Of a stretch of DNA of 32,000 bases, positions 1,773-26,239 are shown one piece after another. Below the pieces are notes generated by a model that saw only the letters and a list, made by a program, of their open reading frames with translations, was not told where the DNA came from and made no database searches. Location: the NCBI GenBank assembly GCA_963706795.1, contig OY970170.1, positions 990,001-1,022,000 of the forward strand. Direction: 5' to 3'. The stretch comes from Candidatus Saccharimonadota bacterium. Lineage in GTDB: Bacteria; Patescibacteriota; Gracilibacteria; BD1-5; UBA2023. The position numbers and the translations under genes are program-made. Position 1 is the stretch's first letter, and every line of letters begins with the position of its first letter.

Positions 1773-2177
1773 ATGGAGACGCAAGAATTTCAGTCACTCG
1801 TACTACAGAAGTTCGATTCGATCGATAAACGTTTCGATGGTCTTGAAACTCGCTTCGACTGACTCGAAACTAAAGTAGATGGTCTTGAAACTAAAGTGGA
1901 CGGTCTTGAAACTAAAGTAGTTGGTCTCGAAACCAGATTCGACTGACTTGAAACTAAAGTGGACGGCTTCAAAACCCGCTTCGACTGACTTGAAAGCAAG
2001 GTTGACCACCTCTCCGAAGACTTCCAATCGTTCCGTGAAGAATCCAGAGCTGAGCATGATACGACGCGAGCGCTTCTCTCACAGGCATTCGGACATATCT
2101 CGGAAAATGTGTCTCACGAAGTTCGATTGCGGTCACTGGAACGTGAAGTCTTCCCAAAACGCCTCGTCAAAGCCTAG
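1773..2177 (+). CDS. Small heptad-repeat coiled-coil protein (134 aa); function unknown, possibly division-associated
   Basis: ATG 1773, TAG 2175-2177. Three in-frame TGA codons (1860, 1944, 1986). Product: METQEFQSLVLQKFDSIDK-[RFDGLET/KVDGLET]x9-...REVFPKRLVKA. Lies between the ftsZ terminator and its own terminator. Confidence 0.8.
1830..2018 (+). repeat. Nine tandem 21-bp (7-codon) repeats encoding (R/K)(F/V)DGLET
   Basis: Contiguous in-frame units: cgt ttc gat GGT ctt gaa act / cgc ttc gac TGA ctc gaa act / aaa gta gat GGT ctt gaa act, and so on. The fourth codon is GGT or GGC in five units, TGA in three, and CAC in the degenerate last unit. Confidence 0.9.
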
Positions 2178-2190
2178 GGAAATTCCTTAA

Positions 2191-2222
2191 AAAAGATCAT
2201 CTGAGTAGAGGTGATCTTTTTA
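2191..2222 (+). terminator. Rho-independent terminator after the heptad-repeat gene
   Basis: Stem aaaagatcat (2191-2200) pairs with gtgatctttt (2211-2220), with one G-U pair, and runs into a T tract. Confidence 0.65.
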
Positions 2223-2270
2223 GTTCTTCCTTTTGGACTTTCTTTTGATATTCAACTTCGAAACCCTAAA

Positions 2271-4988
2271 ATGACGTCCATGCAATTTATAGTAGTAGAC
2301 TTAGAAACCACCGGTTTAGATTCAAAAACCGACGCGATTATTGAGGTCGCGCTTTTACGTATCGATGAGACCGGCAAAGAGCTCGGACGATATGAGACGC
2401 TCATCAATCCTGGCTTTGCGATCAAAGAAGACATCACCTATATCACTGGGATTACCAACGAAGATCTCGTAAATGCTCCGGTATTTTCAGCTGTGCGAAA
2501 TACTCTCGCAGAGTTTTTGTGAGTGAGTCCGGTGATCGGGCATAATGTCGATTTTGATATCGCATTTTTGCGTGAATACGGACTCGATTTTAATGAGACG
2601 CTCATTATTGATACCTTTAAACTCGCGGAGATTTTGATGCTCCATGAGAAAAGTCTCAATCTTACAAGTATCGCGACGAGTCTTGGGTATAGCCATGTCT
2701 GAGCACATCGTGCGATGGCAGATGTACTCGCAACGGGATTTGTATTTGCGCATTTCTTCAAACAAATCCAGGATTTGGATGATGCACATCAAAAGCTCTT
2801 TATTTCGATCGCTTCTCGTACCGAAGAGGGGAATATGCTCCGATTTTTTGCGAACAAAGTAATCGAACTTGAGCTTGCGCCGGACGAGCTTATTATCGGA
2901 ATTCTTGAGTCGAAGCTCACACGCATGCCGCTTCCTACGAGACTTGTGAGCGATGAGCCTGAGGCGATTCCAAATTTTGCAGATGTTCTTGCGGCTGCAA
3001 CCAATCTCGAGGAACGTCCCGAGCAAATGAAGATGCTGAGTCTCGTCCACGAAGCCTATACCGAGGGTAAAAAATATCTCATCGAAGCTCCCACTGGAGT
3101 CGGTAAAACCATTGCTTACTTGCTTCCTGCGATTCTACATTCTACAAAAGAAGGGTCTCAGATTTTTGTCTCAACCAATACTCGAACTCTCCAAGACCAG
3201 ATTATCGAAAAAGACGTACCAAAACTCCGTGCGCTTTTAAAAGAATTTCATCTCGACCATTTTTCGGTACAAAAACTCAAAGGAAGAACCAATTATGTGA
3301 GCCTGCTCAAGGCCTTTGAATTTATCGACAAAGAACGGTTTGAATACTTCGAGGCTATTTTTGCGATCAAGATCGCGTACTGGCTCATGGAAACCAAGAC
3401 TGGTGAGCTCGATGAACTCTCGTTTTATGGACCTGAATATTCGCTCGTAGATGACATTAATGCCTCGGACTCAAGAGTCCTCGGCTCCGAAAATCCCCAC
3501 AAAGATGACGAATTTCTCTTCCTTGCACGTGAGTGAGCAAAGCGGGCAAATATTGTGGTCGTCAATCATGCGCTCTTGCTTACCGAATTTCTCGAGGACG
3601 AGCTTCGTGGCGTGCTTCCAAAGCTCGATCATCTCGTGCTCGATGAGGTCCACAATCTTGAGGCGGTAGCGACGGATACACTTAAAGCAACTTCTCATAC
3701 TGACGATATCGATCATGTCCTTGTCGAAGTCGATCGACTCGTAAAACGTCATAACAAAAAAGAAATCGCCGATCCATTTCTCTTCCCTGAGGCAAAAGAA
3801 CAATGAGAATGAATGGTGCTCACGGCTTCGATGTTTTTTGAAGAATTGGATTTTTATCTCGCTTCAAAAATACGGATGGGAGGAGGGGATTCGTATGGCG
3901 CTGGTCGAGCGACGGACTTGCTGCTTGATGGTGAATTTTTTAAGCATGAAGTGTATTCAAAGCTTCTCAAACTTTTTGATTCACTCCAGTTACGGGTTGC
4001 GGATTTTGAACGCATGCTTTTTTTGGCTCCCGAAAAACTCATGCGCGAACTCGAGGGGCCGATTGGGCGACTTGATTTTTTTATGAGCCATCTCGGACGA
4101 TTTTTATCTGAAGCAAATACCGCAAGTATCCGCATCCTCTCAAAGCGAGAGGGGCAATCTATCAAGATTGTAACGACTCCACTCGCGATCGGACCGCTCC
4201 TTGCTGAACGACTCTGGAAGGATCGTAAGAGTGTTGTTGCCACGAGTGCAACGCTCGCAGTTGGTGGATCATTTAATTATATCACTCGCGTACTTTCGCT
4301 CTGAGGCTTTGATCTACATGTACTCAAGACCGATTTTAATTACGCAAAACAGGCGCTGCTCTATATTCCGTCTGAACTCTGAGATGTGCGCAAAGAAGAA
4401 GAAAAGCGAGCAATTTCTCAGTTTGTCCGTGATATCGTGCTTATCTTTGGCGGCCGCACGCTCATGCTCTTTACAGCCTTCACAGCGATCAAAGAAATGG
4501 CACTCGCATGTGCTCCAGCATTTAAATCCAAGGGAATCCAGCTCCTCACACAATGAATGAGTGGTGGGAAGCATAAGATGATCGGAGAATTTATGCGAAA
4601 CTCCGACCACAGCGTTCTTTTTGGAACGGAGAGTTTTTGGGAAGGAGTCGACTTTCCTGGTGAGAGTCTCGAGCTTCTTATCATCCATAAATTCCCATTT
4701 GCGGTTCCAACTGATCCGATATTTATGGCGCGATCAAAGCTCTATGATAACGCCTTCCGTGACTACGCGCTTCCTGCAATGATCATCAAACTTCGCCAAT
4801 GAATCGGGCGCTTGATCCGTACAAAAACAGACAAGGGCGTGCTCGTGCTTCTCGACAAGCGCATAACCGGTGAATGGGGAAGCGAAGTGCTCGCATCACT
4901 TCCCGAATGACTCCCGATAAAAATGGTATCAACTAAAGAGTTCCTACCACTTCTCGAAGCGTCAAGGCCGAAATTTGCAACGAAGTAA
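2271..4988 (+). CDS. dinG: Fusion of a DnaQ-like 3'-5' exonuclease and a DinG-family ATP-dependent helicase (905 aa)
   Basis: Six ORF-track fragments (2211-2522, 2715-3536, 3555-3806, 3813-4304, 4557-4802 and linkers) share one frame. Ten in-frame TGA codons join them (2520, 2700, 3534, 3804, 3810, 4302, 4380, 4554, 4800, 4908). Exo motifs: FIVVDLETTGLD, GHNVDFD, HRAMADV. Helicase motifs: APTGVGKT, DEVH box, FWEGVDFPG, Q-G(TGA)-IGRLIR. No Cys cluster lies between motif I and DEVH, so this is the Fe-S-less Firmicute-type DinG. Stop is TAA 4986-4988. Confidence 0.9.
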
Positions 4989-5872: not shown

Positions 5873-7132
5873 ATGTACGCTCCACTCGATAAGAAAAAAC
5901 AATCTCGCCTGATCAAAAGCGTCATCCTTAATGGTATGTTCGTGGTGATTTTGAGCGCATTTCTCTGGCTCTATGTTTATGATGGCTACAGTGCGGTCGG
6001 CGCCAAAGTTGATACACTCAATGACATGGTCAAGAGCTTCAATGCTATGAAAAGCGATGGGATCGATGGCCGCAAATACCAGACCCTCATCAGCAAGCTG
6101 AACAATAATAATCGTCCCAAAGACGAAAAGGTAGACTATGACAAAATTACTGAGGTCCTCAAAAAGCCTGCAAATGTCTCAATGCCATATATGGATTGGA
6201 TCAAGTCAGAGATGACAATGGTTAGTGCGTATGACAAAATCATCGAGAATAACGCTCGTATTATTGGAAATATTCTTCCGACATTTAGTGATTCTCCGGC
6301 TGATCAGGATGATACATTCTCAAAAAATCGCATTACCCTCAAGTCGCTCGTAAAATTTGTCGAAGAACACCTCCTCAAAAAATTCAATCTTGAGAGTTAT
6401 TCTTCGGTTGGTCTCTCAAATATTGTATTTAGTACTTCACAGGTTGGAGTTGTAAATATTGGTAGCTACAAAGTGACCCTCGATATTGCGGGTACAAATA
6501 ATTCGATTCTTGCACTCCTCGATGCGATTCAGGCTTCTGGAACCCTTCCACTCAAGGATGGGAAACTCGTTGATACTGATGTTTCAACTAATTCAGGAAC
6601 GGTAGCAACTCCTGCTGCTGATACTTCGACGGATTCTGCACTTTCAAATCTGCTCATCACTGTAGATGCTGCAAAATTTGATACACCTCCTGAGCGCAAT
6701 GATAACAAAAATAAGGGTCAGCTCGTGCTTGTGCTCTACGTACGAGGAAGAAGCTATAGCGACTTCATCCAGATCCGCAATGAGCTTGCAGCCAATATCA
6801 AGACACTCAAAAAGAATATCGAAACCAATGGCGGACTCTGCAAGGATGGAAACTCTGATATTTGTAAAAACCCGATTGCCTTTGCTGCAGTGAACTCTAT
6901 CAAGAGTCTCCAAGATGACATTGGCTCGATCGATCAAAAGATGCAAGAATCTCTCAAAAGTAACACTATCCGCGATATCGGAACTGAGTTTGATACTCTC
7001 TATGGCGTGCTCACCAGCTATAACGCTATAAACGCAAACTACCAAAAGGATCTCACTGACATTACAAACGCACGTCAGGGAGGCTCGTCAGACACTCAGA
7101 CACCCGCAACCAATAGCTCTACCGCTCAATAG
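5873..7132 (+). CDS. Hypothetical bitopic membrane protein, second gene of the pilus-like operon (419 aa)
   Basis: Intact ORF with an N-terminal TM anchor (VILNGMFVVILSAFLWLYVY) and a large external domain ending in a Ser/Thr-rich tail. Ends 4 nt before pilB. No in-frame TGA. Confidence 0.8.
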   Translation: MYAPLDKKKQSRLIKSVILNGMFVVILSAFLWLYVYDGYSAVGAKVDTLNDMVKSFNAMKSDGIDGRKYQTLISKLNNNNRPKDEKVDYDKITEVLKKPANVSMPYMDWIKSEMTMVSAYDKIIENNARIIGNILPTFSDSPADQDDTFSKNRITLKSLVKFVEEHLLKKFNLESYSSVGLSNIVFSTSQVGVVNIGSYKVTLDIAGTNNSILALLDAIQASGTLPLKDGKLVDTDVSTNSGTVATPAADTSTDSALSNLLITVDAAKFDTPPERNDNKNKGQLVLVLYVRGRSYSDFIQIRNELAANIKTLKKNIETNGGLCKDGNSDICKNPIAFAAVNSIKSLQDDIGSIDQKMQESLKSNTIRDIGTEFDTLYGVLTSYNAINANYQKDLTDITNARQGGSSDTQTPATNSSTAQ

Positions 7133-7136
7133 TACC

Positions 7137-8396
7137 ATGGCTTTCCAAGCTCTCGAAGATCTCAAAAACGAAGTCTACAAAGGAGACAATGCTCAGCTCA
7201 TTTGTAATCTTATTATTTCGGCTGCCGTTTCGATGCAGGCGTCGGATATTCATATTGAGCCGCTCTCGAATTTTGTACGACTCAGATATCGTATAGACGG
7301 AGTACTCACAGAAGTTCTCGAATACCAACAGTTTCTTCACTCTCAGATTGTTGCGCGTTACAAGATCCTCGCAAATCTCAAAATCGACGAATCCCGAATG
7401 CCGCAGGATGGACGTATCTCAACAACGCTCGAAGAAAAATCACTCGATCTTCGTGTTTCGACGCTTCCTACCGTCAATGGTGAGAAAATCGTAATGCGTA
7501 TCGTCGACAAATCCAAAAAAATCCCTGAGCTCAGTGCACTCGGTATTGAGGGGCGCAACGGAGTTCTTCTCCAAAAAGCGATCAGCTTACCAAATGGTAT
7601 TATACTCACCTCAGGTCCAACCGGTTCAGGTAAGTCGACGACACTGTATGCTTGTCTCTCTAAGCTCAACAAGCCAAACGTTAATATTATGACCCTCGAA
7701 GATCCTGTCGAAAACACGATCGATGGAGTCTCACAGAGTCAGGTTTTCCCAGATATTGGTTACAATTTTGCATCCGGACTTCGCACCGCTCTCCGACAGG
7801 ATCCAGACATCATCATGGTCTGAGAAATCCGCGACAAAGAGACTATTAATATCGCTATCGAAGCTTCGCTTACGGGTCATCTCGTGCTCTCGACGATTCA
7901 TACGAATTCTGCATCTGAGACGCTCACTCGTATTCTCAATATGGGAATACCAGCATATCTCTTGCCAGCTTCGATCAACGCCATCATCGCACAGCGCCTC
8001 GTTCGCAGACTCTGTCCGCATTGCAAAAAGGCGATCAAGGCTGCAGAACTTCCACAAAAAATGCAGGCCTCACTCAAACGTGCGATTGCTCGCACCAACA
8101 AGGATGAACTCGTTAGTCGTGTAGGTATAGAAAAGCTCAAAGATCCAACCTTCTACGAGCCAGTTGGATGTAACGAATGTGGGAATACCGGCTACTCAGG
8201 ACGTGTCGGAATCTACGAAATCATGGAGATTACGAATCGCATCAAAGAAGCGATCGTCGCCGGAGAATCCAGCGTCGTCATCAATGAAATCGGTATCGAT
8301 GAAGGGATGATCTCACTCGAACAAGACGGTATCATGAAGGCACTTAATGGTGCTACTTCGCTCGAGGAAGTCTACGCAGCAGCAAAAGAAAATTAA
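7137..8396 (+). CDS. pilB: Type IV pilus / type II secretion assembly ATPase (PilB/GspE family), short form (419 aa)
   Basis: Fragments 7137-7823 and 7884-8396 share one frame. TGA 7821-7823 falls on the Gly of the conserved IIMV-G-EIRD motif. Walker A is GPTGSGKSTT; His box is LTGHLVLSTIHTN. Tetracysteine motif CPHC...CNEC is typical of PilB/GspE rather than PilT. Confidence 0.93.
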
Positions 8397-8405
8397 TACA
8401 CCAGT

Positions 8406-9548
8406 ATGGAGGATATCATCATCCAAGACACTCAATCGAGTGCCGAAGTCACCAAAAAATCATTTAGATTCTCACTCGAATCCTTTGATGCATGGCTCGT
8501 CGCTCACCAGCGAATGAAGCTCAAAGAAAAGGTGATCTTTTTCCGACTTCTTGCGACCATGGTTAATGCAGGACTTCCAGTACTCAAGTCCATCGCTATC
8601 CTCGAAAAACAAGAGCAAAATCCTGTCGTCAAAAACGTCTACAGCCGCATCATCGAATGAGTAAAGGGCGGAAAAAATCTCTCCCTCACGCTTCGTAGTT
8701 TTGATGGTACATTCTCTGATGCTGAAGCCTCCATCATCGAATCCGGAGAAAAAACCGGTAAACTCAATAACGCCCTCCTCCAGCTTGCTGATCAGGTCGA
8801 AAAGGTCGACAGTGTTACTAAAAAAATCAAAGGCGCTCTCATCTATCCTGCAGCCATTGTCATCGTCATGTTCGGATCGATCACCGTCCTCATGACACTC
8901 GTTGTTCCCAAGCTCGTTGAGATGTTTGGTGACAAAGACAAGCTTCCGGCTCTGACGCAGCTCCTGATGGCGACGAGTGATTTCTTTGTAAATTACTGGT
9001 GGGCTATGATCGGTACGATTGTCATCGCGATCGTACTCCTCGGTGTATGGCGCAAAAGTGCAGAAGGTCACTACAAATTTGACGCACTTCTCCTCAAACT
9101 CCCAATCTTTGGATCAGTGCTTCGTAAGGTAATCCTCTCAAAGTTTTCACGTGTTCTCTCCAATCTCCTCGGCAGCGGTATCTCGATCGTAGAGTCTCTT
9201 CGAATCGTCTCCGAAGTCGTCGACAACGAAGTCTATCGCCAGCGAATCCTCGCCCTCCGTGAAGACGTCAAACGCGGAGTCAAAATCGCCGAAAATCTCG
9301 AAGACGACAAACTCTTCCCAGAAATGCTCGTCCAAATGATCAAAGTCGGAGAAGAAACCGCCAAACTCGATTCTATCATCCTCAAGATCGCTGACTTCTA
9401 TGATGAAGAAGTCGACAACACGATCAATGCAATTAACAAGACGCTCGAGCCAGTGATCATCGTAACCATGGCCATCGTCATCGGTTTCATCGCCGTCGGT
9501 ATCATGCAACCAATCATGAATCTCTCAGAAACGATCGAAAACAAGTAG
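8406..9548 (+). CDS. pilC: Type IV pilus / T2SS platform protein (PilC/GspF family, 380 aa)
   Basis: Fragments 8406-8660 and 8868-9548 are joined in frame through TGA 8658-8660. Shows the duplicated GspF-type pattern (FFRLLATMVNAGLPVLKSI... and FSRVLSNLLGSGISIVESL...) with three TM segments. Stop is TAG 9546-9548. Confidence 0.93.
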
Positions 9549-9601: not shown

Positions 9602-10759
9602 TGGAGCGATGCAGATTTTGCAGGATATATTAGAACTCGTACTTGGCTGTCCTGCATTGTGAGAGCAGGCTCCCGCTGAAGCTGCACCAGATGCAGCAAT
9701 CGTTTTTGTAGATGATTGCCAGCCGGCCGGACACGCAGTCATAACCACTTCTGTTCCTGATGGGAGTAATCCTGCAGCTTGTGTACGGCAGGCAAGACAT
9801 GCTGTGCCGCTACTGCAAGCCACTGTTTGAGGTAAGCCTAACGCTACAGTACTATTCGGTGAACTAATGGATCATGTTGGACAAGATGCTCATGCAATCA
9901 AATAATCTACTCATACGGGCACTGTACTATTTGGTTTCGCACTACAGACTTTTGCTAATCAGGTTGTCGAAAAGCCGATTCCAGGCGCTCCACTTAAAAT
10001 CGCATTTGTCGTCGAAACTGACCATCCCTTCGGGCAATCTGCCATGACGACTTCCATGATCCCTTTGTAATTCATTTCGAGTCCTCAGAGCGCTCCAGTG
10101 CTGGTGGAGATATTTGCGATAAACGTCTTGTTATCGAGGATGGCCATAATTGCCCCTGTATTTACCTGTACATCTACTTGTGTGACTGTTGAAGCATTAT
10201 ATGTCTCTTGTATTGGCTGATTGAGAGTCGAGCCTGTGATAGTTCCGACGAGTATTCCAAGCTGCGCTCATCGAGTGAGTGGCACTCGAGTATCATAGTT
10301 TGCAGCGTATGCCTGTGGTATGACAGAGCTCATCGCTGTTACTCCATTGGTATTTTCGAGAAGTGCGAGAATCTGGTATGTACTGCCGCTCGTGTCCGTG
10401 CTGTAGGTGTAGTACTGATTGTCCGTCGGATCCATCCCTTTGCCCCCAAATCAGATAAATCCGAGTAGATTTTTACCTGCATATCATTGTGCACCGATCG
10501 CTGCGCCTGAGGCAGTAATCGTAATTACATTCGCATCCGGTTGAGGTAGTGAAATTCCTGTGGTAATCTGTGCTTCAAGTGCAACTCAGATCGAGGCAAG
10601 ATCGCTTGATCTCGTGCTGTCTCGCGCACTGCTCGAATATCCTTGGAGCGACAAAAATCCAATCGTCCCCAAAATCGCAAGAATCGTAATCACCACAATG
10701 AGCTCAACAAGTGTGAAGGCTGCAGATCCAGAGTAACTTTTGTCTCTATTTCGCATCAT
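9599..10759 (-). CDS. Large type IV pilin-like protein with a Cys-rich C-terminal module (386 aa)
   Basis: Hand translation of the - strand from ATG 10759 to TAA 9599-9601 is open when nine in-frame TGA codons are read as sense. The N-terminus MMRNRDKSYSGSAA-FTLVELIVVITILAILGTIGF is a class III (prepilin) signal with the conserved Glu at +5. A pilin-core-like YYTYSTDTSGSTYQILALLEN follows. The last ~150 aa carry 10 Cys. Confidence 0.85.
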
Positions 10760-10781
10760 AAGGAGGAAGAAAATAACGCGA

Positions 10782-10811
10782 ATATTATGGGATTTTTAAA
10801 ATGGGAAGCAA
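10782..10811 (-). promoter_or_regulatory. Candidate sigma70-type promoter for the pilin gene
   Basis: On the - strand: TTGCTT (10811-10806), an 18-nt spacer, then TAATAT (10787-10782), about 22 nt upstream of the ATG. Each hexamer matches consensus at only 4 of 6 positions. Confidence 0.25.
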
Positions 10812-11590: not shown

Positions 11591-12277
11591 ATGGCTACAC
11601 AAAAAAATACACCCAAGAGTAAACCGATCGTCGGAGCGATTATATTTCTCGTGGTGATCGTGCTCCTTGGGTACTACGCACTCTCGAACAATACGCCCAA
11701 AAAACCAGTTTGGAACGAAAATGACCGTAAGGTCACGCAAACGGGTACAACTACATCAGATACCTCTACTGGAGATACCACTCCTCCTGCTACAGATTCT
11801 GGAAGCATGACTCCTCCGCCTCCTGATGCCATCGTCAATACGCCGGCTGGTCGCGATGCACGCGACTCTGATCCTCTAGTGAATCCTCCGCCAGTAGTTG
11901 CTACAAACACGGGTACAATTACGAGTACGGGCACTACCTCATCGGGTGTAACCGAATACTGGAATGAATCACTTGGCTACGGATTTTCAGTACCCAAGGG
12001 TACGTACTACCTCGGTACAGGTCCTCGTGATGAGGCAGCTCATAGCGTAGCGCTTCGTGTAGGAACGGGGGCAACCGACTTTGAGAGCGCGGAGGTTCGA
12101 GTCTGGTACTATCCAAGAAAACTCCTCCAGCAGCTTGCAGAAGGGGAGAATGGATTCTATCAAGATGCGAATACTTCTCGCACATATATGAAGTTCGGAT
12201 CTGGAACTCTTGTTATTGGCGGAACATTCGATAGCTCAGTCGTGAAGACCATCATCCAAACAGCAAAAGTTCGCTAA
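11591..12277 (+). CDS. Hypothetical membrane-anchored protein with a Thr/Pro-rich linker (228 aa)
   Basis: Intact ORF. N-terminal TM anchor (IVGAIIFLVVIVLLGYYAL), a T/S/P-rich spacer, and a ~110-aa C-terminal globular region. TATACT lies 22 nt upstream of the ATG. Stop is TAA. Confidence 0.8.
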   Translation: MATQKNTPKSKPIVGAIIFLVVIVLLGYYALSNNTPKKPVWNENDRKVTQTGTTTSDTSTGDTTPPATDSGSMTPPPPDAIVNTPAGRDARDSDPLVNPPPVVATNTGTITSTGTTSSGVTEYWNESLGYGFSVPKGTYYLGTGPRDEAAHSVALRVGTGATDFESAEVRVWYYPRKLLQQLAEGENGFYQDANTSRTYMKFGSGTLVIGGTFDSSVVKTIIQTAKVR

Positions 12278-12280
12278 ACA

Positions 12281-12309
12281 AAAAAAGAGTCAGCAATGAC
12301 TCTTTTTTT
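12281..12309 (+). terminator. Rho-independent terminator after 11591-12277
   Basis: Stem agagtca (12286-12292) pairs with tgactct (12297-12303) around a gcaa loop. Flanked by an A run and a 7-T run. Confidence 0.7.
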
Positions 12310-12336
12310 AGGCTTCAATTTGCGCCATATTTCAGG

Positions 12337-12438
12337 ATGAACGTGGATAGTATGTGGTTTTCGAAACCGACTCACTGTGCGTCTCTGAGGTGCCCTCTGC
12401 TTTTGTCGGTAAGAAATACACATACTATCCACGTTCAT
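12337..12438. repeat. Hairpin A: 102-nt element closed by a perfect 20-bp inverted repeat (candidate structured RNA or repeat element)
   Basis: atgaacgtggatagtatgtg (12337-12356) is the exact reverse complement of cacatactatccacgttcat (12419-12438). The 62-nt interior pairs further (accgac 12365-12370 with gtcggt 12405-12410). Confidence 0.85.
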
Positions 12439-12464
12439 TATCGCCATACGACCTTTCATCGAAT

Positions 12465-12567
12465 GAAACCTCATAGAATATATCTTTTTCATTCAATCAA
12501 AGCCAGTGCGCACCTAGAATTCACCAAGGCTGCTTGAATTTCAAAAACATATATTCTATGAGGTTTC
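12465..12567. repeat. Hairpin B: 103-nt element closed by a perfect 19-bp inverted repeat (candidate structured RNA or repeat element)
   Basis: gaaacctcatagaatatat (12465-12483) is the exact reverse complement of atatattctatgaggtttc (12549-12567). The interior pairs further (ttttt/aaaaa, attcaa/ttgaat, gcc/ggc) around an apical GTGCGCAC palindrome. Confidence 0.85.
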
Positions 12568-12591
12568 TGGGAAGTTTCGAGACTGAGAAGT

Positions 12592-13260
12592 TTAGAAGCA
12601 TACCACAAACTCGCCCTTCATCGGATGAGTTTTAAAATGCTCGCGAACCTCGGTAGTAGTTCCGCGTACGAATTCTTCGAATTTTTTAGTGAGTTCACGT
12701 CCCACTACGATCTGGTGTTCAGACCCAAAATATTCCTCGAGTTCGGCGAGAGTTTTCTCAATGCGGTGGACGCTCTCGTAGATCACAACTGTATGATCTT
12801 TGTTTTGAAGGCTTTCAAAGAGGGTTTTGCGTCCTTTTTTGATCGGTAAAAACCCGAGATATGTAAAGTGGTGTGTCTGAAGGCCCGAGCAAATAAGTGC
12901 CGAAAGCACAGCCGAAGCTCCAGGAATAGGGCAGAGGGTGATCCCTGCTTCGATTGCTTTGCGTACAAGTGAGTAGGCTGGATCTGATATCCCTGGAGTT
13001 CCTGCATCTGAGATGAGGGCGATATTTGCGCCTTCTTCTAAGAGCTTAATAATCGCATCCTCTTTACCTGCACCCGTATGCGAATGGAACGAAATCGTCT
13101 TCTTGCCCGTAATTTCATAATGTTTGAGAAGAATCCCTGAAGTGCGAGTATCCTCACAGGCAATATAATCCGCCTCGCGCAATGTGCGAAGTGCTCGAAG
13201 TGTGATATCTTCGAGGTTCCCGATGGGTGTAGAGACGAGATAGAGGATTCCTGATGCCAT
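12592..13260 (-). CDS. rsmI: 16S rRNA (cytidine1402-2'-O)-methyltransferase RsmI
   Basis: Intact ORF. LYLVSTPIGNLEDITLRALRTLREADYIACEDTR, SDAGTPGISDPG-like motif (SDAGTPGISDPAY) and ESVHRI are typical of the tetrapyrrole-methylase-fold RsmI family. ATG 13260 (alternative TTG 13269). Stop is TAA 12592-12594. Confidence 0.93.
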   Translation of the reverse strand: MASGILYLVSTPIGNLEDITLRALRTLREADYIACEDTRTSGILLKHYEITGKKTISFHSHTGAGKEDAIIKLLEEGANIALISDAGTPGISDPAYSLVRKAIEAGITLCPIPGASAVLSALICSGLQTHHFTYLGFLPIKKGRKTLFESLQNKDHTVVIYESVHRIEKTLAELEEYFGSEHQIVVGRELTKKFEEFVRGTTTEVREHFKTHPMKGEFVVCF

Positions 13261-13269
13261 AGGGCTCAA

Positions 13270-20136: not shown

Positions 20137-20145
20137 TTTTGTAAA

Positions 20146-22326
20146 ATGAGTAGTTCTCTTAAGATTTTATCCGCTTCTCGTAATTGAGGGGCGGATTCTC
20201 GCGAATTATTCATCACTGCATCGCTCATGGGCTACTACGTCAGTCTCTATGCCTTCTCAACTATATTCGCACTGTTTTGAGGAGCGATGGTTTTCCGTAA
20301 ATATCGCAATCCTTCAGGGCTTTTCTTCCTGTTGTTTTCGTTTTTTGCGTGTGCGTGGTTTATTCTCTATTTCCTGTTTTTTTCAGGTATTCCGAACAAG
20401 GATTGGCTGCTGATGATCTCGCGTTTGGACTTCGCAATCGGGATTTTGGGTGTGTACAGTTTGTTAGGCTTTATCTACTTTTTTAATACGAAGCCGTCGA
20501 AACTCTTTGTGAAAGAAGTTCTTTGGATACTTGGATGGATGCTTTCGGTGCTGGCCTTTTATGTATTTACCAAAGGTATCATCGCGGGACTTTATTACGA
20601 AGCGAGTGAAAAAGTATTCCGAGAAATCCCTGGTAAGGTCTTTGCTCTGCATATCGCGCTCCATGCAACCTGTGTATTTTTGTTTTGTTATTTTTCATTT
20701 AAGCAGCTCAAAAAACAAACCTATCTCAATCGCATCCGTCTCAAGCATATCCTGACATCAGCATTTATGCTGGTGTTATTTTTGATTGTTTTCCAGCTCA
20801 TTTTACCTTCTTTTGGTATCTGGATTCTCGAAAAAGAAGTCGTGTTCTCGCTCGCGATTTTTGTCCTCTATATCTATCTTACGATCAATCGTTATTACTT
20901 CTCCCGTGGCTTTGGTATGGGGAAGGCTTCGGTAACAGTACTCTCGGCAGTCCTCTGAGTCTTGCTCTTTGAGCTGATCAAACAAGGATATTTTCCGATT
21001 TATTGAAATCTCCTCGCAAATTATTGGAATCTCACGGATGAGTATTCGATATTGGACCCCGCTCTCGCGATCATCTTCTTTATATTTGTGCATTTCGTAC
21101 TGCGTAAGACACTTCTCGGGAGTACGTACCGACAAGATCTCAAAAAGAAAATGCAGGATATCCACAGAAGTATTTCGCACGCGACTTCTCTTGAGCGTCT
21201 CAATGACTACATCCACATGGGTATCAGAAAGGTCTTTAAGACAACCTTTTCAGAAGTGCGTGTCTTTGTAGATGAGGCTGAAAAGACTGAACTCCAGAGC
21301 TTTTTTGAGTACTTTCCGGACAAGATATTTATTAATGATTTCGTATTTATCGAAGAAAATAAATCTAAATTCGACCGCAAAAAACTCCTTGCCGAAATCC
21401 CAGAAGAAGCCTTTCTCGTACTGCCATTCTTTAATAAAGAGTGAGATGTGTGTACTGGCGTGCTTATTGCAGGTAACAAACTCTTCTGAGATTTTTATAA
21501 CTCCGACGAGATCGAAACCCTCAGGGATTTTTCGTTTGGACTTGGACTTCATATCAAATATATCAAGACATACGGACAAATCCGCGATCTCTCGATTAAT
21601 CTCGATAAAAAAGTCGACCAAAAAACCATGGAGTTCAACAACCTTATCAATCAACAAAAAGAATTCATCAGTGTGATTTCCCATGAGATTAAGTCGCCGA
21701 TTGCGAGTGCGATTTTTCAGGCAGATAGCATGCTCGATGATCTCGCTAATGATGAACTGCCACCAGAATTACTCAAAAAAGAGCTCGATCTCCTTAATAG
21801 TCAGCTCATCAAGACCTGAGAACTCATCTCTACACTCTTCTCTGTGCAGTATTTTGATATCCACTCTGTTTCACTTTTTCGCGAAAATGTGCAAATTAGT
21901 TATTTATTACAGACAGAATATGAAGTATACTCTCGCATGCATGGACATATACAGTTCATGAATGAGATCAGTGATAAGATTGGATTTGCTTCCGTCGATC
22001 GTATCCAGCTGCAGCAGGTTGTTGCCAACCTCCTGAATAATGCAGTCAAATTCATCGACAAACAAGACCCGATTATTCTCGTAAAAGCGGGCAAAAAAGG
22101 CGGATTCATAACGATCACGATCGAAGACAACGGACGTGGATTTCAGTGAATTAACGTAGCGCAACTTTTTGAGAAATATACAACATTCGGAGGAGGCGAA
22201 TCGACGGGTCTCTGAATGGGGCTCTATCTCTGTAAAAAGATAGTTGAAATGCACGGATGAGAAATCACCGCAGGGAATTCCCAAAGATTGTGAGGCGCCG
22301 AATTCACTATCAGGATCCCTGTATAG
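20146..22326 (+). CDS. Multi-pass membrane sensor histidine kinase (726 aa)
   Basis: Five track fragments (20287-20958, 21052-21444, 21628-21819, 21844-22149 and linkers) share frame 1 and are joined by eleven TGA codons. About 8-9 N-terminal TM helices. HisKA H-box is SVISHEIKSPI. HATPase N box is NLLNNAVKF; G1 is DNGRGF. The G2 box TGL-G(TGA 22213)-MGL and MHG-G(TGA 22258)-EI place TGA on canonical Gly. Stop is TAG 22324-22326. The start could instead be ATG 20287. Confidence 0.9.
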
Positions 22327-23844: not shown

Positions 23845-26223
23845 CTATGTGTTTTCTTCTTGCGGATGAGCAACAAGTGGAATAGTAAAATGAAAATTTG
23901 ATCCCATTCACAAGCGGCTTTCTACCTCGATGCGTCCACCCATCTGACTGACGATTTCCTGAGAAATAGCGAGTCATAGTCCGCTTCACATATGTGTCCT
24001 CGTAAAGACATTATCAAGCTGAGAAAATTTTGAAAATATTTTTTTGGTGCCTTCTATATTCATACCGATACCAGTATCGATGACTTCTACTTTGAAGGTT
24101 TCTTTGTTTACTTGGGTTGATCGGACAGTGACGGTTCATCCGCGGGGTGTGAATTTAATAGCATTTCAGATGAGATTGACGAGCACTTGTTTGAGGAGAT
24201 TGGGGTCGGTCGTGATCGCTATGGATTCGTCTGTTTCGAATAGAAAATCAAGTCCGGCTCGCTCTGCAATATTGTCGTACTCGTATTTGATCTCTGCTAA
24301 AAATGTTTGTAGATGGATGGTGCTATTCTCGAATTCCATTTTGCGAGACTCGAGTTTGGCGATATTGAGCATGTCATTGACGAGTTTGATGAGGCGATTA
24401 CTTGAGTCAAACATCACCTCGAGTGGCTTATACATAGGCTCGGCGAGCTCTCAAAAATCTCCTTCGAGCAACATGGATGCGTAACCCTTGATTGAGGTCA
24501 AGGGAGTGCGAAGCTCATGCGAAGCAATATTGATAAAATCATCCTTAAGCGCATTGAGATCCTCAAGGTGTTTGCGTTCTTTTTCGAGGGTACGATATGC
24601 TCGGAGGTCCGTCATCATACCGACACTTCAAGCACTTCCAAGGGGTATTCCGGTGAGTCGGACAGGGATAATTTCACCATCTTTTGCGAGGAGTTCTACT
24701 TCGTATTCGGTTTTTGCGCCCTCGCGCCTGAGAGTAATATTGTCCTCGAGTGATTTTCGGCTTTGCGGTGTAAAAAAATCAAATGACTTCTTGCCAATAG
24801 CTTCTTCGGGTGTGTATTTGGAGAGTTCTGTGAATAGACGATTGACAGATACAGTCGTCTCATCGATATTGCCCATCCAAATCGCCACTGACGAATTATC
24901 GATGATATCTTTGTAGGATTCGGTATACCACTGATGGGTTTTATTGATTTCTTCAACCTTGCTCTTTATATCTATTTGGAGCGACTTATTGAAGTCTTCT
25001 AGCTCTGTCGAGGTCACATTTACGAGATGTAGCAGTGCCTGAATCGTGTCGAGATATCTGCGATTTTTACTCGAAATAAACGGAATGGGCGAGATATGAG
25101 ATCGTTTGTTTTCTTCTGCGTGCTCAGTGAGTCCGAGTACAGTCATCGTTTGATTGAGAAATTCATTGTGCTTGTTCGCATGAAAAAACTCACCATATGT
25201 AAAAAATCCACTTGTGGCTGCAATCATTTCAAGGGGCTGCATCTCGAGTGAGATATGTTCCTGCAAAAATCTGCGCCTCGCCATGCACGAATAAATAAAA
25301 AATGTCTCCATCGTGATATCCTGAAATCGCTCATACATTTTATGAGAAGTTTCTAGGACAAGACGAGCATCGCCAAGTCCAAATTGCACAACTGCTCATT
25401 CGTGAATATTGCCTCAAAATGAGAGCGAGCCATCAGGGTGTTTGGTGAGTGGAGCGCGTGCCACCCTTTGTCCATTCTTTAAAATAATCAGCGGAAACTC
25501 GATACCGATAGCCGGAAGTCTCTCGGCGGTTTCGTTGCCAAAGTATTTTCTGTAGATCTCGGTGGTCGGAATTCCGTCGATCTCATAAACACGATTGCGG
25601 TCAGATTTGGTGATGGTGAGTTTTTTGCCGATACTGATCCAATCAAAGGCGTAGTCACTTTTTACTGTCAGATGTTTACTCTCGAGCGCTGCTCACACGA
25701 TCCCTGTAGTCGAGAGAATTTCTTCTGTAAAAATATATGTCCCAATAAAGGTTCCATTGTCTCCTGCGAGTCCACCAGCAATGACGATGTCGGGATTGAT
25801 GCTCTCGATTCATTTGAGGAGTTCTTCTCCATTGGTGTGAAGTCACTCGCCAAAGAGAATGAGGACTTTGGTGTCGGATTTGCAAATAGCTTTGGTAATT
25901 GCAACTCCTGCTAAAAAGCTGTCGGTTGCAGCATCGGCAATATGTTCGGTCGTAATTTTTGTATTTTCAAAAACACTTATCGAAATCAGGACGCTACCGG
26001 TTGCGACATTGCCGCGGTTAATCTCGCCGTCAGTGGTTGCGCCGATGATCTTTGCAGAGGGGAGAAGTCCTTTGATTTGCATACGAAGATCCTCTAAAAA
26101 AACTCGATCCAAAATCCCCGAAAATACCTGTACCAAGACATTTGGTTCCTCCGAAAAATGGTTGTCTGTTGCAAATGCTTGGAGCTCTTCACGAGAGGTA
26201 TACGTCAGAGTTTTGGTATACAT
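23845..26223 (-). CDS. Cytoplasmic FIST-PAS sensor histidine kinase (792 aa)
   Basis: Track fragments 25843-26223, 24628-25389 and 24166-24435, plus linkers, form one frame with twelve TGA codons. The N-terminal ~400 aa resemble FIST_N/FIST_C (IIGATTDGEI, IAGGLAGDN, EFPLII). A PAS-like segment follows (SVNRLFTELSKYTPEEAIGK). H-box is IASHELRTPL, N box NLI-G-NAIKFT, G1 DTGIGM, G2 M-G-SGL-G-LAIS (TGA 23986 and 23974). Stop is TAG 23845-23847. Confidence 0.9.
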
Positions 26224-26239
26224 AAGGCATTGCTAGAGG

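What the first reader, a model, noticed from the sequence alone, without database searches (positions are those of the whole stretch)
12310..12591. Two adjacent ~100-nt hairpins with perfect 19-20 bp stems between convergent genes
The 282-nt gap between the terminator of 11591-12277 (+) and the 3' end of rsmI (-) is unusually long for this compact window, and no ORF in it is credible.

It holds two side-by-side elements of nearly identical size. Hairpin A (12337-12438) is 102 nt with a 20/20 bp perfect stem. Hairpin B (12465-12567) is 103 nt with a 19/19 bp perfect stem. In both, the interior folds further into a rod. The arm sequences of A and B are unrelated to each other.

A perfect 20-bp inverted repeat within 150 nt is not expected by chance in 32 kb (on the order of 1e-5 or less). 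The upstream gene already has its own terminator, and neither hairpin is followed by a U run on the rsmI strand, so simple termination does not explain them.

Candidate explanations are a pair of structured small RNAs, processing or anchor sites, a recombination or protein-binding site, or small non-autonomous repeat elements.
Basis: seen in the sequence. Interest (0 to 1): 0.7.

Follow-up and report, generated by a model that had tools for sequence, protein, structure and literature searches.

The report
Palindromic repeat pair in Gracilibacteria spacer
The two 100-nt hairpins are real, and they are two diverged, oppositely oriented copies of one small palindromic repeat family found only in a narrow clade of Gracilibacteria; this is most likely selfish, ERIC/MITE-like DNA whose arms stay perfectly paired while their sequence changes.

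Summary
Hairpin A (12337-12438, 20/20 bp) and hairpin B (12465-12567, 19/19 bp) exist, are far beyond chance, and are reproduced by independent short-read contigs.

The host is a UGA-recoded Candidatus Gracilibacteria genome of about 1.27 Mb.

The arms of A and B look unrelated, but A and B are paralogues in opposite orientation. They share an 18-nt apical motif (AGGTGCSCNCTGSNTTTG) at the same offset, a GAA internal loop and a covarying 6-bp inner stem.

I recovered three more members from close relatives. One lies at a second locus of the same MAG.

- Occupancy of the rsmI spacer differs between strains: A-type only, B-slot only, or both.
- More distant relatives have no hairpin at this spacer.
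- Copies share a 49-77-nt inner module at 95-100% identity, but their outer arms differ and are perfect within each copy.
- Orthologues A and S3429 differ at 4 stem positions, and all four are compensated Watson-Crick to Watson-Crick.
- No match was found in Rfam, phages, plasmids, IMG/VR or JGI.

Best reading: a low-copy, lineage-restricted palindromic intergenic repeat (ERIC/MITE-like, but not a strict MITE). Its arms are kept perfect at the DNA level. A structured-RNA role is not excluded.

The parts
12280..12309 (.). Bidirectional intrinsic terminator (13-bp perfect stem, A-run upstream, T-run downstream). It ends the 228-aa gene and probably also rsmI transcripts coming from the other side.
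   Evidence: (I4). Homologous terminators lie 18-30 nt from the hairpins in L006, S3429 and L053.
12329..12336 (+). 5' tail ATTTCAGG of element A. The motif is AYTTCMSR, also seen 5' of B, of S3429, and inside the arm of the L006 copy.
   Evidence: (TTCAGGATG shared by window and L006).
12337..12438 (+). Hairpin A, core-sense on the + strand. 102 nt with a 20-bp perfect outer stem. It is the orthologue of the single hairpin in strain S3429.
12366..12410 (+). Inner module of A: 6-bp stem P2 (12366-12371 with 12405-12410) enclosing the conserved apical region. The motif AGGTGCCCTCTGCTTTTG lies at 12388-12405.
12323..12329 (+). Left copy of a 7-bp direct repeat CGCCATA (right copy at 12442-12448). 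The pair brackets TTTCAGG + A + TAT and is a possible target-site duplication. The evidence is weak.
   Evidence: (D3). It is not conserved in the S3429 orthologue.
12442..12448 (+). Right copy of the CGCCATA direct repeat.
   Evidence: (D3).
12465..12567 (-). Hairpin B, core-sense on the - strand (the rsmI sense strand). 103 nt with a 19-bp perfect outer stem. It is a divergent paralogue of A and occupies the same slot as the hairpin of MAG contig L006.
12498..12515 (-). Apical motif of B, AGGTGCGCACTGGCTTTG, at offset 53 of the element. The motif in A is at offset 52.
12568..12575 (-). 5' tail ACTTCCCA of element B, read on the - strand.
12592..13269 (-). rsmI (TP_methylase domain, 222-225 aa). 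Its 3' UTR would contain B in sense and A in antisense before reaching the terminator at 12309-12280.
11591..12277 (+). Fast-evolving 228-aa gene with no Pfam domain, convergent with rsmI.

Best explanation
A and B are two diverged copies, in opposite orientation, of a lineage-restricted, low-copy palindromic intergenic repeat of about 100-110 nt. It is a new ERIC/MITE-like family of one Gracilibacteria clade.

Shown: the family has a conserved, asymmetric inner module of 49-77 nt. This module comprises AT-rich alternating purine-pyrimidine inner arms, a GAA internal loop, a 6-bp stem and an apical motif AGGTGCSCNCTGSNTTTG. Outer arms of 11-20 bp differ from copy to copy but are perfect Watson-Crick complements within each copy. 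Copies sit 18-30 nt from bidirectional terminators in spacers between convergent genes. Occupancy and orientation differ between close strains. More distant relatives have no hairpin at this spacer.

Inferred: the inner module is the unit that is copied to new sites, by an unidentified trans-acting activity or by recombination. It lands in transcriptionally harmless, terminator-proximal DNA. The arms are then kept perfect, and extended into the flank, by a DNA-level process: intramolecular template switching at quasipalindromes during replication. This would let arm sequence drift while pairing stays perfect.

Side effect, also inferred: the rsmI 3' UTR carries two long double-stranded RNA rods that could act as RNase III targets or barriers to 3' exonucleases.
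For: **Homology of A and B**
- They share the same length and the 18-nt motif at offsets 52 and 53.
- They share the GAA loop and the covarying inner stem P2.

**Further members**
- L006 8401-8506 and L053 7570-7671 lie on two contigs of MAG GCA_049315825.1.
- S3429 was joined from L078 and L004.

**Sharp module edges**
- L006 and L053 are 94.8% identical over 77 nt, with unrelated outer arms.
- S3429 and L006 are 100% identical over 49 nt in opposite orientation, in a spacer that is otherwise unalignable. Yet dnaA third positions of those two strains are only 82% identical.

**Presence and absence**
- The window has two copies; S3429 has only the terminator-side copy; L006 has only the rsmI-side copy.
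- L077 has rsmI 10 nt from the convergent homologue, with no hairpin. L071, a relative without the convergent-gene arrangement, also has none anywhere in its 10.8-kb locus.

**A half-element relic** lies next to the L053 copy.

**Pairing is maintained**
- In the 5-sequence alignment 94.7% of cells pair and 20 of 32 pairs show double changes. No shuffle out of 500 reaches this, and slid controls pair in only 29-49% of cells.
- Orthologues A and S3429 differ at 4 of 17 shared stem pairs. All four are compensated and none is uncompensated. Their flanks are only 44-55% identical.
- Only one G-U cell occurs in the outer helix, which points to a DNA-level process rather than RNA-level selection.

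**Context**
- Orientation relative to neighbouring genes and terminators is not fixed, and no promoter signal exceeds chance.
- No match was found in Rfam.
- Published work shows that quasipalindrome template switching makes inverted repeats 'perfect or more perfect' (PMC7202029).
- Gracilibacteria rank second among phyla in inverted-repeat density (bioRxiv 10.1101/2024.09.29.615628).
Against: - Only five full copies are known. The strict core pattern found just two in the one related MAG present in the GTDB set, and a covariance model found no more in 119 kb of clade DNA. 'Dispersed repeat' therefore rests on two loci.
- No transposase, HUH nuclease or reverse transcriptase lies near any copy.
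- Terminal inverted repeats are not conserved between copies, and the only candidate target-site duplication (CGCCATA) is offset from the hairpin and absent from the orthologue. Classical MITE transposition is therefore not demonstrated.
- The core is far more conserved than neutral sites: 49 of 49 positions at about 18% neutral divergence. The core-sense strand always folds 5-10 kcal/mol better than the antisense strand. Both observations would also fit a functional RNA or single-stranded DNA element.
- Template-switch maintenance is inferred from the sequence pattern and was not observed.
Confidence: 0.55

Rival explanations
1. A family of structured RNAs, either stand-alone sRNAs or 3'-UTR elements. 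A long stem presents a conserved apical loop (AGGUGCSCNCUGSNUUUG) and a GAA internal loop to a protein. The stems covary because pairing is selected at the RNA level.
For: - Covariation is strong and the core is conserved well beyond neutral expectation.
- In all five copies the core-sense strand is 5-10 kcal/mol more stable than the antisense strand.
- U-G pairs in P2 and one G-U pair in the L006 arm are tolerated only on the sense strand.
- B and the L006 copy lie in sense orientation directly downstream of rsmI.
Against: - No Rfam family matches.
- No promoter-like site exceeds chance.
- A, S3429 and L053 are core-sense only downstream of an intrinsic terminator, and they lie antisense in the only obvious transcript.
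- Orientation, number and position vary between close strains, and relatives with 77-82% RsmI identity have no hairpin.
- The outer stems are almost purely Watson-Crick, with 1 G-U cell among about 125. That is atypical for helices selected at the RNA level.
- The apical region has no consistent secondary structure across copies.
Confidence: 0.2
2. A single-stranded-DNA hairpin site for a strand-specific recombinase or nuclease, of the IS200/IS605 TnpA or RAYT type, integron attC-like, or a Xer or single-strand-origin-like site. The conserved asymmetric core would be read in the folded strand, and the element would move as single-stranded DNA.
For: - The core is asymmetric and conserved, and one strand folds better in all copies.
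- The stems are purely Watson-Crick.
- Copies differ in their arms but not in the core.
- Occupancy is polymorphic between strains.
Against: - No HUH, Y1, integrase or Xer-like gene lies near any copy.
- The ends do not match the attC R''/R' consensus (RYYYAAC and GTTRRRY from my own knowledge, compared by eye with the sequence).
- At about 100 nt the elements are much longer than REP or IS200-type hairpins.
- No viral or plasmid relative was found.
Confidence: 0.1
3. Hairpins that evolved in place as RNA 3'-end stabilisers or atypical transcription barriers between convergent genes. On this view they are not mobile.
For: All copies lie between convergent genes, next to terminators. Stem pairing is preserved irrespective of sequence.
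Against: - A nearly identical 77-nt module occurs at an unrelated locus (SOD / csp-like spacer) in the related MAG.
- The spacer already has a canonical terminator, and the hairpins have no U-tract.
- Relatives manage with a 10-nt spacer and no hairpin.
Confidence: 0.07
4. An invertible DNA switch (inverton). The arms would be the inverted repeats and the roughly 60-nt core would flip.
For: The core is found in both orientations at this spacer in different strains.
Against: - Orientation differences always come with different arms and flanks, so this is not a simple flip.
- The invertible segment would be only about 50-60 bp.
- No recombinase gene is nearby, and no promoter is detected in the core.
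- Logan contigs break at the centre of the hairpin, not at the boundary between arm and loop.
Confidence: 0.03

Closest known systems
ERIC / IRU (enterobacterial repetitive intergenic consensus, about 127-bp imperfect palindromes)
   Same: Both are about 100-130-nt non-coding imperfect palindromes in intergenic or 3'-UTR DNA. Presence varies between strains, no transposase is known, and both can form long RNA hairpins that affect mRNA fate (PMC10969869).
   Different: There is no sequence relationship. ERIC has tens to hundreds of copies per genome, conserved along the whole element. Here only 2 copies per genome are known so far, and the outer arms are specific to each copy.
Bacterial MITEs such as Correia elements (Neisseria), RUP (pneumococcus) and QMITEs (Coxiella)
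   Same: Similar small size, no coding capacity, arms that are inverted repeats, intergenic or 3'-UTR location, presence/absence polymorphism, and a whole element that folds into a rod (PMC10969869, PMC3184786, PMC2229807).
   Different: MITE copies share terminal inverted repeats derived from a parent IS and carry direct target-site duplications. Here the termini differ between copies while the centre is conserved, no parent IS is known, and the evidence for a target-site duplication is weak.
Quasipalindrome template-switch hotspots (E. coli thyA and lacZ reporters)
   Same: This is a DNA-level mechanism that converts imperfect inverted repeats into perfect ones (PMC7202029). It would explain strictly Watson-Crick compensated arm changes and palindrome boundaries that differ over a shared 5' tail.
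   Different: It is known as a mutational mechanism acting on a few bases in experimental reporters. It has not been described as the long-term maintenance mode of a natural repeat family.
Stem-loop structured repeat families catalogued across bacterial genomes (PMC2267715)
   Same: The same general category: genome-specific families of repeated sequences that fold as stem-loops.
   Different: This family is not in those catalogues. It comes from an uncultivated, UGA-recoded CPR lineage.

Membership tests
MITE | Small (<~400 bp) and non-coding | tested here: met
   The elements are 98-106 nt. ORFs across them have no Pfam hit and are not in the protein collection.
MITE | Terminal inverted repeats within each copy | tested here: met
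   Each copy has 17-23 bp of perfect arms.
MITE | Terminal inverted repeats conserved between copies and shared with a parent IS | tested here: not met
   The outer arms of A, B, L006, L053 and S3429 differ, and only the inner 49-77 nt is shared. No IS or transposase was seen in any locus. The complete genomes could not be scanned.
MITE | Direct target-site duplication flanking the element | tested here: inconclusive
   A 7-bp CGCCATA repeat brackets A, but it is offset by 7 and 3 nt from the hairpin and is not conserved in the S3429 orthologue. None is seen for B, L006 or L053.
MITE | Multiple dispersed copies with presence/absence polymorphism | tested here: inconclusive
   There are two loci in MAG GCA_049315825.1 and two slots in this spacer, with strain-specific occupancy. 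No further copies were found in 119 kb of clade DNA.
REP / RAYT system | Short (20-40 nt) GC-rich palindromes, highly abundant, with a RAYT (TnpA_REP) gene | tested here: not met
   The elements are about 100 nt, 35-47% GC and low in copy number. No Y1 transposase lies in the sampled DNA.
Any Rfam RNA family | Covariance-model score at or above the gathering threshold | tested here: not met
   There are 0 matches at gathering thresholds in 32 kb. The best sub-threshold hits are plant miRNA precursors at 29 bits against a cut-off of 100, which reflects only the hairpin shape.
Intrinsic terminator | Short GC-rich stem directly followed by a U-tract | tested here: not met
   No T-run follows either hairpin on either strand. 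A canonical terminator lies separately at 12280-12309.
Inverton | The same inverted repeats flank a segment found in both orientations, with a site-specific recombinase | tested here: not met
   Opposite core orientations come with different arms, and no recombinase is in the window. Heterogeneity within a population could not be tested.
Integron attC | R''/R' core sites (RYYYAAC ... GTTRRRY) at the ends, and an integron integrase | tested here: not met
   The ends are ATGAACG...CGTTCAT (A) and GAAACCT...AGGTTTC (B), which do not fit the consensus (the consensus is from my own knowledge). No integrase is in the window.
Expressed small RNA gene | Own promoter, defined ends, detectable transcript | not testable with these tools
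   Only a consensus scan was possible. It found one promoter-like site, inside B's arm, against 1.1 expected by chance. No transcript data are available.

The most novel reading that the evidence does not exclude
The inner module of about 50-80 nt is a new type of mobile hairpin element of CPR bacteria. It builds its own outer arms after each insertion by fold-back (self-templated) synthesis over the flanking DNA. Every copy therefore carries locus-specific yet perfectly complementary arms around a conserved, strand-specific core that is read by an unknown enzyme. Alternatively, the core is the binding site of a clade-specific RNA-binding protein, and the family is a new structured RNA.
Probability: 0.12. 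Interest if true: 0.75.

Novelty: new variant of a known kind. Interest (0 to 1): 0.4.

Why it matters
If the reading is right, this adds a repeat family to a phylum where mobile and repeated non-coding DNA is almost undescribed. Gracilibacteria are uncultivated, UGA-recoded and have about 1-Mb genomes.

It also gives a natural example in which long inverted repeats stay perfectly Watson-Crick over substantial divergence while their sequence turns over. That pattern is what replication template switching predicts, and it may help explain why this phylum ranks among the richest in inverted repeats.

There is a practical point too. The hairpins break short-read assemblies at their centre, so they fragment MAGs of this clade. 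They also provide a hypervariable strain marker next to dnaA and rsmI.

If the element instead turns out to be an RNA or a single-stranded-DNA recognition site, the conserved 18-nt apical motif is a ready handle for finding its protein partner.

Tried and rejected
- **Rfam.** Nothing at gathering thresholds, and only shape-driven miRNA hits in permissive mode.
- **Exact arm of A in 596 Gb of GTDB genomes.** 0 hits, so the source genome is not in that set.
- **Loose core pattern in IMG/VR.** 37 hits, none of them in a hairpin.
- **Stricter core pattern in GTDB.** 14 hits, of which 12 are a conserved Gallionellaceae coding stretch or chance and 2 are real.
- **The same pattern in JGI metagenomes.** 13 hits, none real.
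- **blastn of the spacer against phages and plasmids.** No match.
- **Arms as 'spacers' against viruses.** No exact match for either arm in IMG/VR.
- **Covariance model R1 over 119 kb of clade DNA, and with filters off over 53 kb.** No new copies; the remaining hits are terminators.
- **Recovering copies through mis-called ORFs.** The hairpin ORFs are not in the collection, and a chimeric six-frame peptide query found nothing. One look-up was wasted on window:424-1623.
- **Conserved peptide in the hairpin.** Rejected by eye from the sequences and the six-frame translations: the frame is open in the A-type copies but shifted by an indel in B, and substitutions are not biased towards synonymous changes.
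- **DnaA boxes or oriC.** Only A's arm resembles a DnaA box (compared by eye with the consensus from my own knowledge), and the GC skew follows gene orientation. Rejected.
- **Pre-existing host hairpins as insertion targets.** The empty slots of related strains do not contain the arm sequences. The spacers are too rearranged for a clean test.
- **REP-like motif in L071.** Only one exact match, so dropped.

Full report
**1.

Between the bidirectional terminator of the 228-aa gene (12280-12309) and the stop codon of rsmI (12592-12594, minus strand) lie two hairpins.
- A spans 12337-12438. Its arms are 26 nt and 92% complementary, with the outer 20 bp perfect.
- B spans 12465-12567. Its arms are 25 nt and 96% complementary, with the outer 19 bp perfect.

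Both fold into rods. The z-scores on their better-folding strands are -9.3 and -7.8 (-8.8 for B's other strand), and 0 of 200 shuffles fold as well. They are the only inverted repeats of this size in the 32 kb, and each arm is unique to its hairpin. The ORFs crossing the gap have no Pfam hit and are absent from a 15-billion-protein collection.

Logan short-read contigs of run ERR12037365 reproduce B fully and A as two halves that overlap by 18 nt. The structures are therefore not an assembly artefact.

**2. The host**

The window's DnaA clusters at 90% identity or more with a protein named 'Patescibacteria group bacterium', and it sits on a 1,267,896-bp contig. The nearest named RsmI homologues are all Candidatus Gracilibacteria.

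Reading UGA as sense (table 25) fuses the fragmented table-11 ORFs into long genes. Relatives' rsmI calls stop at an in-frame TGA 36 codons before the true TAA. The genome is therefore a UGA-recoded CPR genome. It is compact, and it carries type IV pilus genes, two-component systems and dnaA next to the locus.

**3. A and B are paralogues**

The arms do not align. However, both hairpins carry AGGTGC(C/G)C(T/A)CTG(C/G)(T/C)TTTG at offsets 52 and 53: A on the plus strand and B on the minus strand. They also share a GAA internal loop and a 6-bp inner stem that covaries (ACCGAC/GUCGGU against AUUCAA/UUGAAU). They are inverted copies of one element, 26 nt apart.

**4. More members**

- Strains with 91% DnaA identity were fetched. 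MAG contig L006 has one hairpin between rsmI and the terminator, at 8401-8506.
- A pattern built on the shared core found, in 596 Gb of GTDB genomes, only that site and a second site on another contig of the same MAG (L053, 7570-7671). The second site lies between a superoxide dismutase gene and a csp-like gene, 29 nt from a terminator. A half-element relic lies 20 nt away.
- A third strain's hairpin, called S3429 here, was rebuilt from contigs L078 and L004. These end 10 nt past each other at the hairpin centre.
- JGI metagenomes, IMG/VR, phage and plasmid collections gave no true hit.
- A covariance model found no further copy in 119 kb of clade DNA.

**5. Comparative anatomy**

dnaA third-codon positions are 54% identical between the window and the other strains, which is near saturation. 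They are 82% identical between L004 and L006.

- *A and S3429 are orthologues.* They lie in the same orientation next to the terminator, and the flanking CTTCAATT is conserved. They are 77% identical without gaps over 102 nt, while their flanks are 44-55% identical.
- *Their stem changes are all compensated.* In the 17 shared outer stem pairs there are four substitutions. All four are compensated Watson-Crick to Watson-Crick, and none is uncompensated.
- *L006's hairpin sits in B's slot.* The flanks CATCGAAT and AGTCTCRAA are shared. Even so, its core is A-type and is 100% identical over 49 nt to S3429's core, in the opposite orientation. The rest of the two spacers cannot be aligned.
- *L006 and L053 share a module with sharp edges.* They are 94.8% identical over 77 nt, and their outer arms are unrelated.
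- *Occupancy differs between strains.* It is A-slot only (S3429), B-slot only (L006) or both (window).
- *More distant relatives have no hairpin at this spacer.* L077 (RsmI 77% identical) has the convergent homologue only 10 nt from rsmI. L071 (82%), where rsmI is followed by a different gene, has none anywhere in its locus.
- *Covariation across five copies is strong.* 94.7% of cells pair and 20 of 32 pairs show double changes. No shuffle out of 500 reaches this, and slid controls pair in only 29-49% of cells. Only one G-U cell occurs in the outer helix.

**6. Interpretation**

The pattern has five parts: a conserved inner module with sharp edges, a second unrelated locus, strain-specific occupancy, relics, and a location in terminator-proximal DNA between convergent genes. 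Together these are what a duplicative or mobile intergenic repeat looks like.

It is not a strict MITE. Termini are not conserved between copies and no parent IS or transposase is seen. The only candidate target-site duplication (CGCCATA, 12323-12329 and 12442-12448) is offset from the hairpin and is not conserved in the orthologue.

The arms are nearly purely Watson-Crick and their changes are fully compensated. The palindrome boundary also shifts over a shared 5' tail: AYTTCMSR lies outside the stem in A, B and S3429 but inside it in L006. Both facts fit DNA-level perfection and extension by quasipalindrome template switching (PMC7202029). This is an inference, not an observation. It also fits the report that Gracilibacteria rank second among phyla in inverted-repeat density (bioRxiv 10.1101/2024.09.29.615628).

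**7. What keeps the RNA or single-stranded DNA reading alive**

- The core is more conserved than neutral sites.
- The core-sense strand folds 5-10 kcal/mol better than the antisense strand in all five copies.
- U-G pairs in the inner stem are tolerated only on that strand.

Against this reading:
- No promoter signal exceeds chance.
- Three of the five copies are core-sense only behind a terminator, and antisense in the obvious transcript.
- Orientation and number vary between close strains.
- The apical region has no consistent fold.
- Rfam has nothing.

In an rsmI read-through transcript, B would be sense and A antisense. Their apical motifs would be 14 of 18 complementary (counted by eye from the motifs), which is an automatic consequence of inverted paralogy.

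**8. Verdict**

The finding is real. It is best described as a new, lineage-restricted, low-copy palindromic repeat family that works like ERIC or MITE elements but fails the MITE definition on termini and target-site duplication. Its unusual property is copy-specific arms that stay perfectly paired.

Confidence is about 0.55 for that reading, about 0.2 for a structured RNA, and about 0.1 for a single-stranded DNA recombination site. Interest is moderate (0.4). The decisive tests are a scan of the whole genome and transcript-end mapping.

Noticed in passing
window 1-32000 (e.g. 2178-4985, 7032-8393, 8397-9545, 20137-22323, 23848-26232): UGA is a sense codon (code 25, Gracilibacteria). Table-11 ORF lists fragment real genes, so the window looks pseudogene-rich when it is not. 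With table 25, long ORFs appear: a DinG-like helicase/exonuclease, T2SSE, T2SSF and histidine kinases.
   Followed up: partly
L001 end / L002 end (window 12380-12397); L078 end / L004 end: Logan short-read contigs from both sides stop 5-9 nt past the centre of the hairpin in two different strains. L003 stops 19 nt after the rsmI stop codon. The stems are shorter than what I recall as Logan's k of 31 (my own knowledge), so this looks like a coverage or sequencing failure at the hairpin, or population heterogeneity. It is not a graph repeat.
   Followed up: partly
L053 7690-7745: A half-element relic (TTTTCGAGGAAATACACATACACCC, with 13 nt identical to A's inner right arm) lies 20 nt from the full L053 hairpin. 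This suggests repeated insertion or decay at the same spot.
   Followed up: partly
window 11591-12277 vs L006 8560-9279 and L077 10671-11393: The 228-aa protein without a Pfam domain evolves very fast. It is 57% identical between strains whose DnaA is 91% identical, and 37% identical in the next relative.
   Followed up: partly
window 9602-10795 (-): A large (about 390 aa) type IV pilin-like protein with a typical N-terminal FTLVELIVV helix and a Cys-rich C-terminus. It lies between the T2SSE/F genes and the hairpin locus.
   Followed up: no
window 1834-1995: A 21/42-nt tandem repeat inside an ORF. It encodes a repeated FDGLETKVDGLETK coiled-coil-like motif.
   Followed up: no
window, whole (sign change near 10-13 kb): GC and AT skew follow gene orientation: the coding strand is rich in C and A. 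The cumulative GC-skew minimum at the hairpin spacer therefore reflects convergent genes, not necessarily an origin, even though dnaA lies 1.7 kb away.
   Followed up: partly
L071 1-130 and 1400-1555 (also L072-L076): In the relative with 82% RsmI identity, all six Logan contigs start about 130 nt upstream of rsmI. These regions contain small GC-cored hairpins such as GATTCCCGCCTTCGCGGGAATGAC and GATCCCGAAACGAGTTCGGGATGAC, possibly a different short palindromic repeat family. An exact-motif search found only one match.
   Followed up: partly
window 12451-12468 vs 12487-12502: The A-B spacer (CTTTCATCGAATGAAA) is both similar and complementary to an interior stretch of B (TTTCATTCAATCAAAG). This gives an alternative pairing. 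The 3' flank ATTCGATG is conserved after the L006 hairpin.
   Followed up: no
window 12388-12405 (+) and 12498-12515 (-): Because A and B are inverted paralogues, their apical motifs would be 14 of 18 complementary (counted by eye from the motifs) within a single rsmI read-through transcript. This could allow a loop-loop interaction.
   Followed up: no
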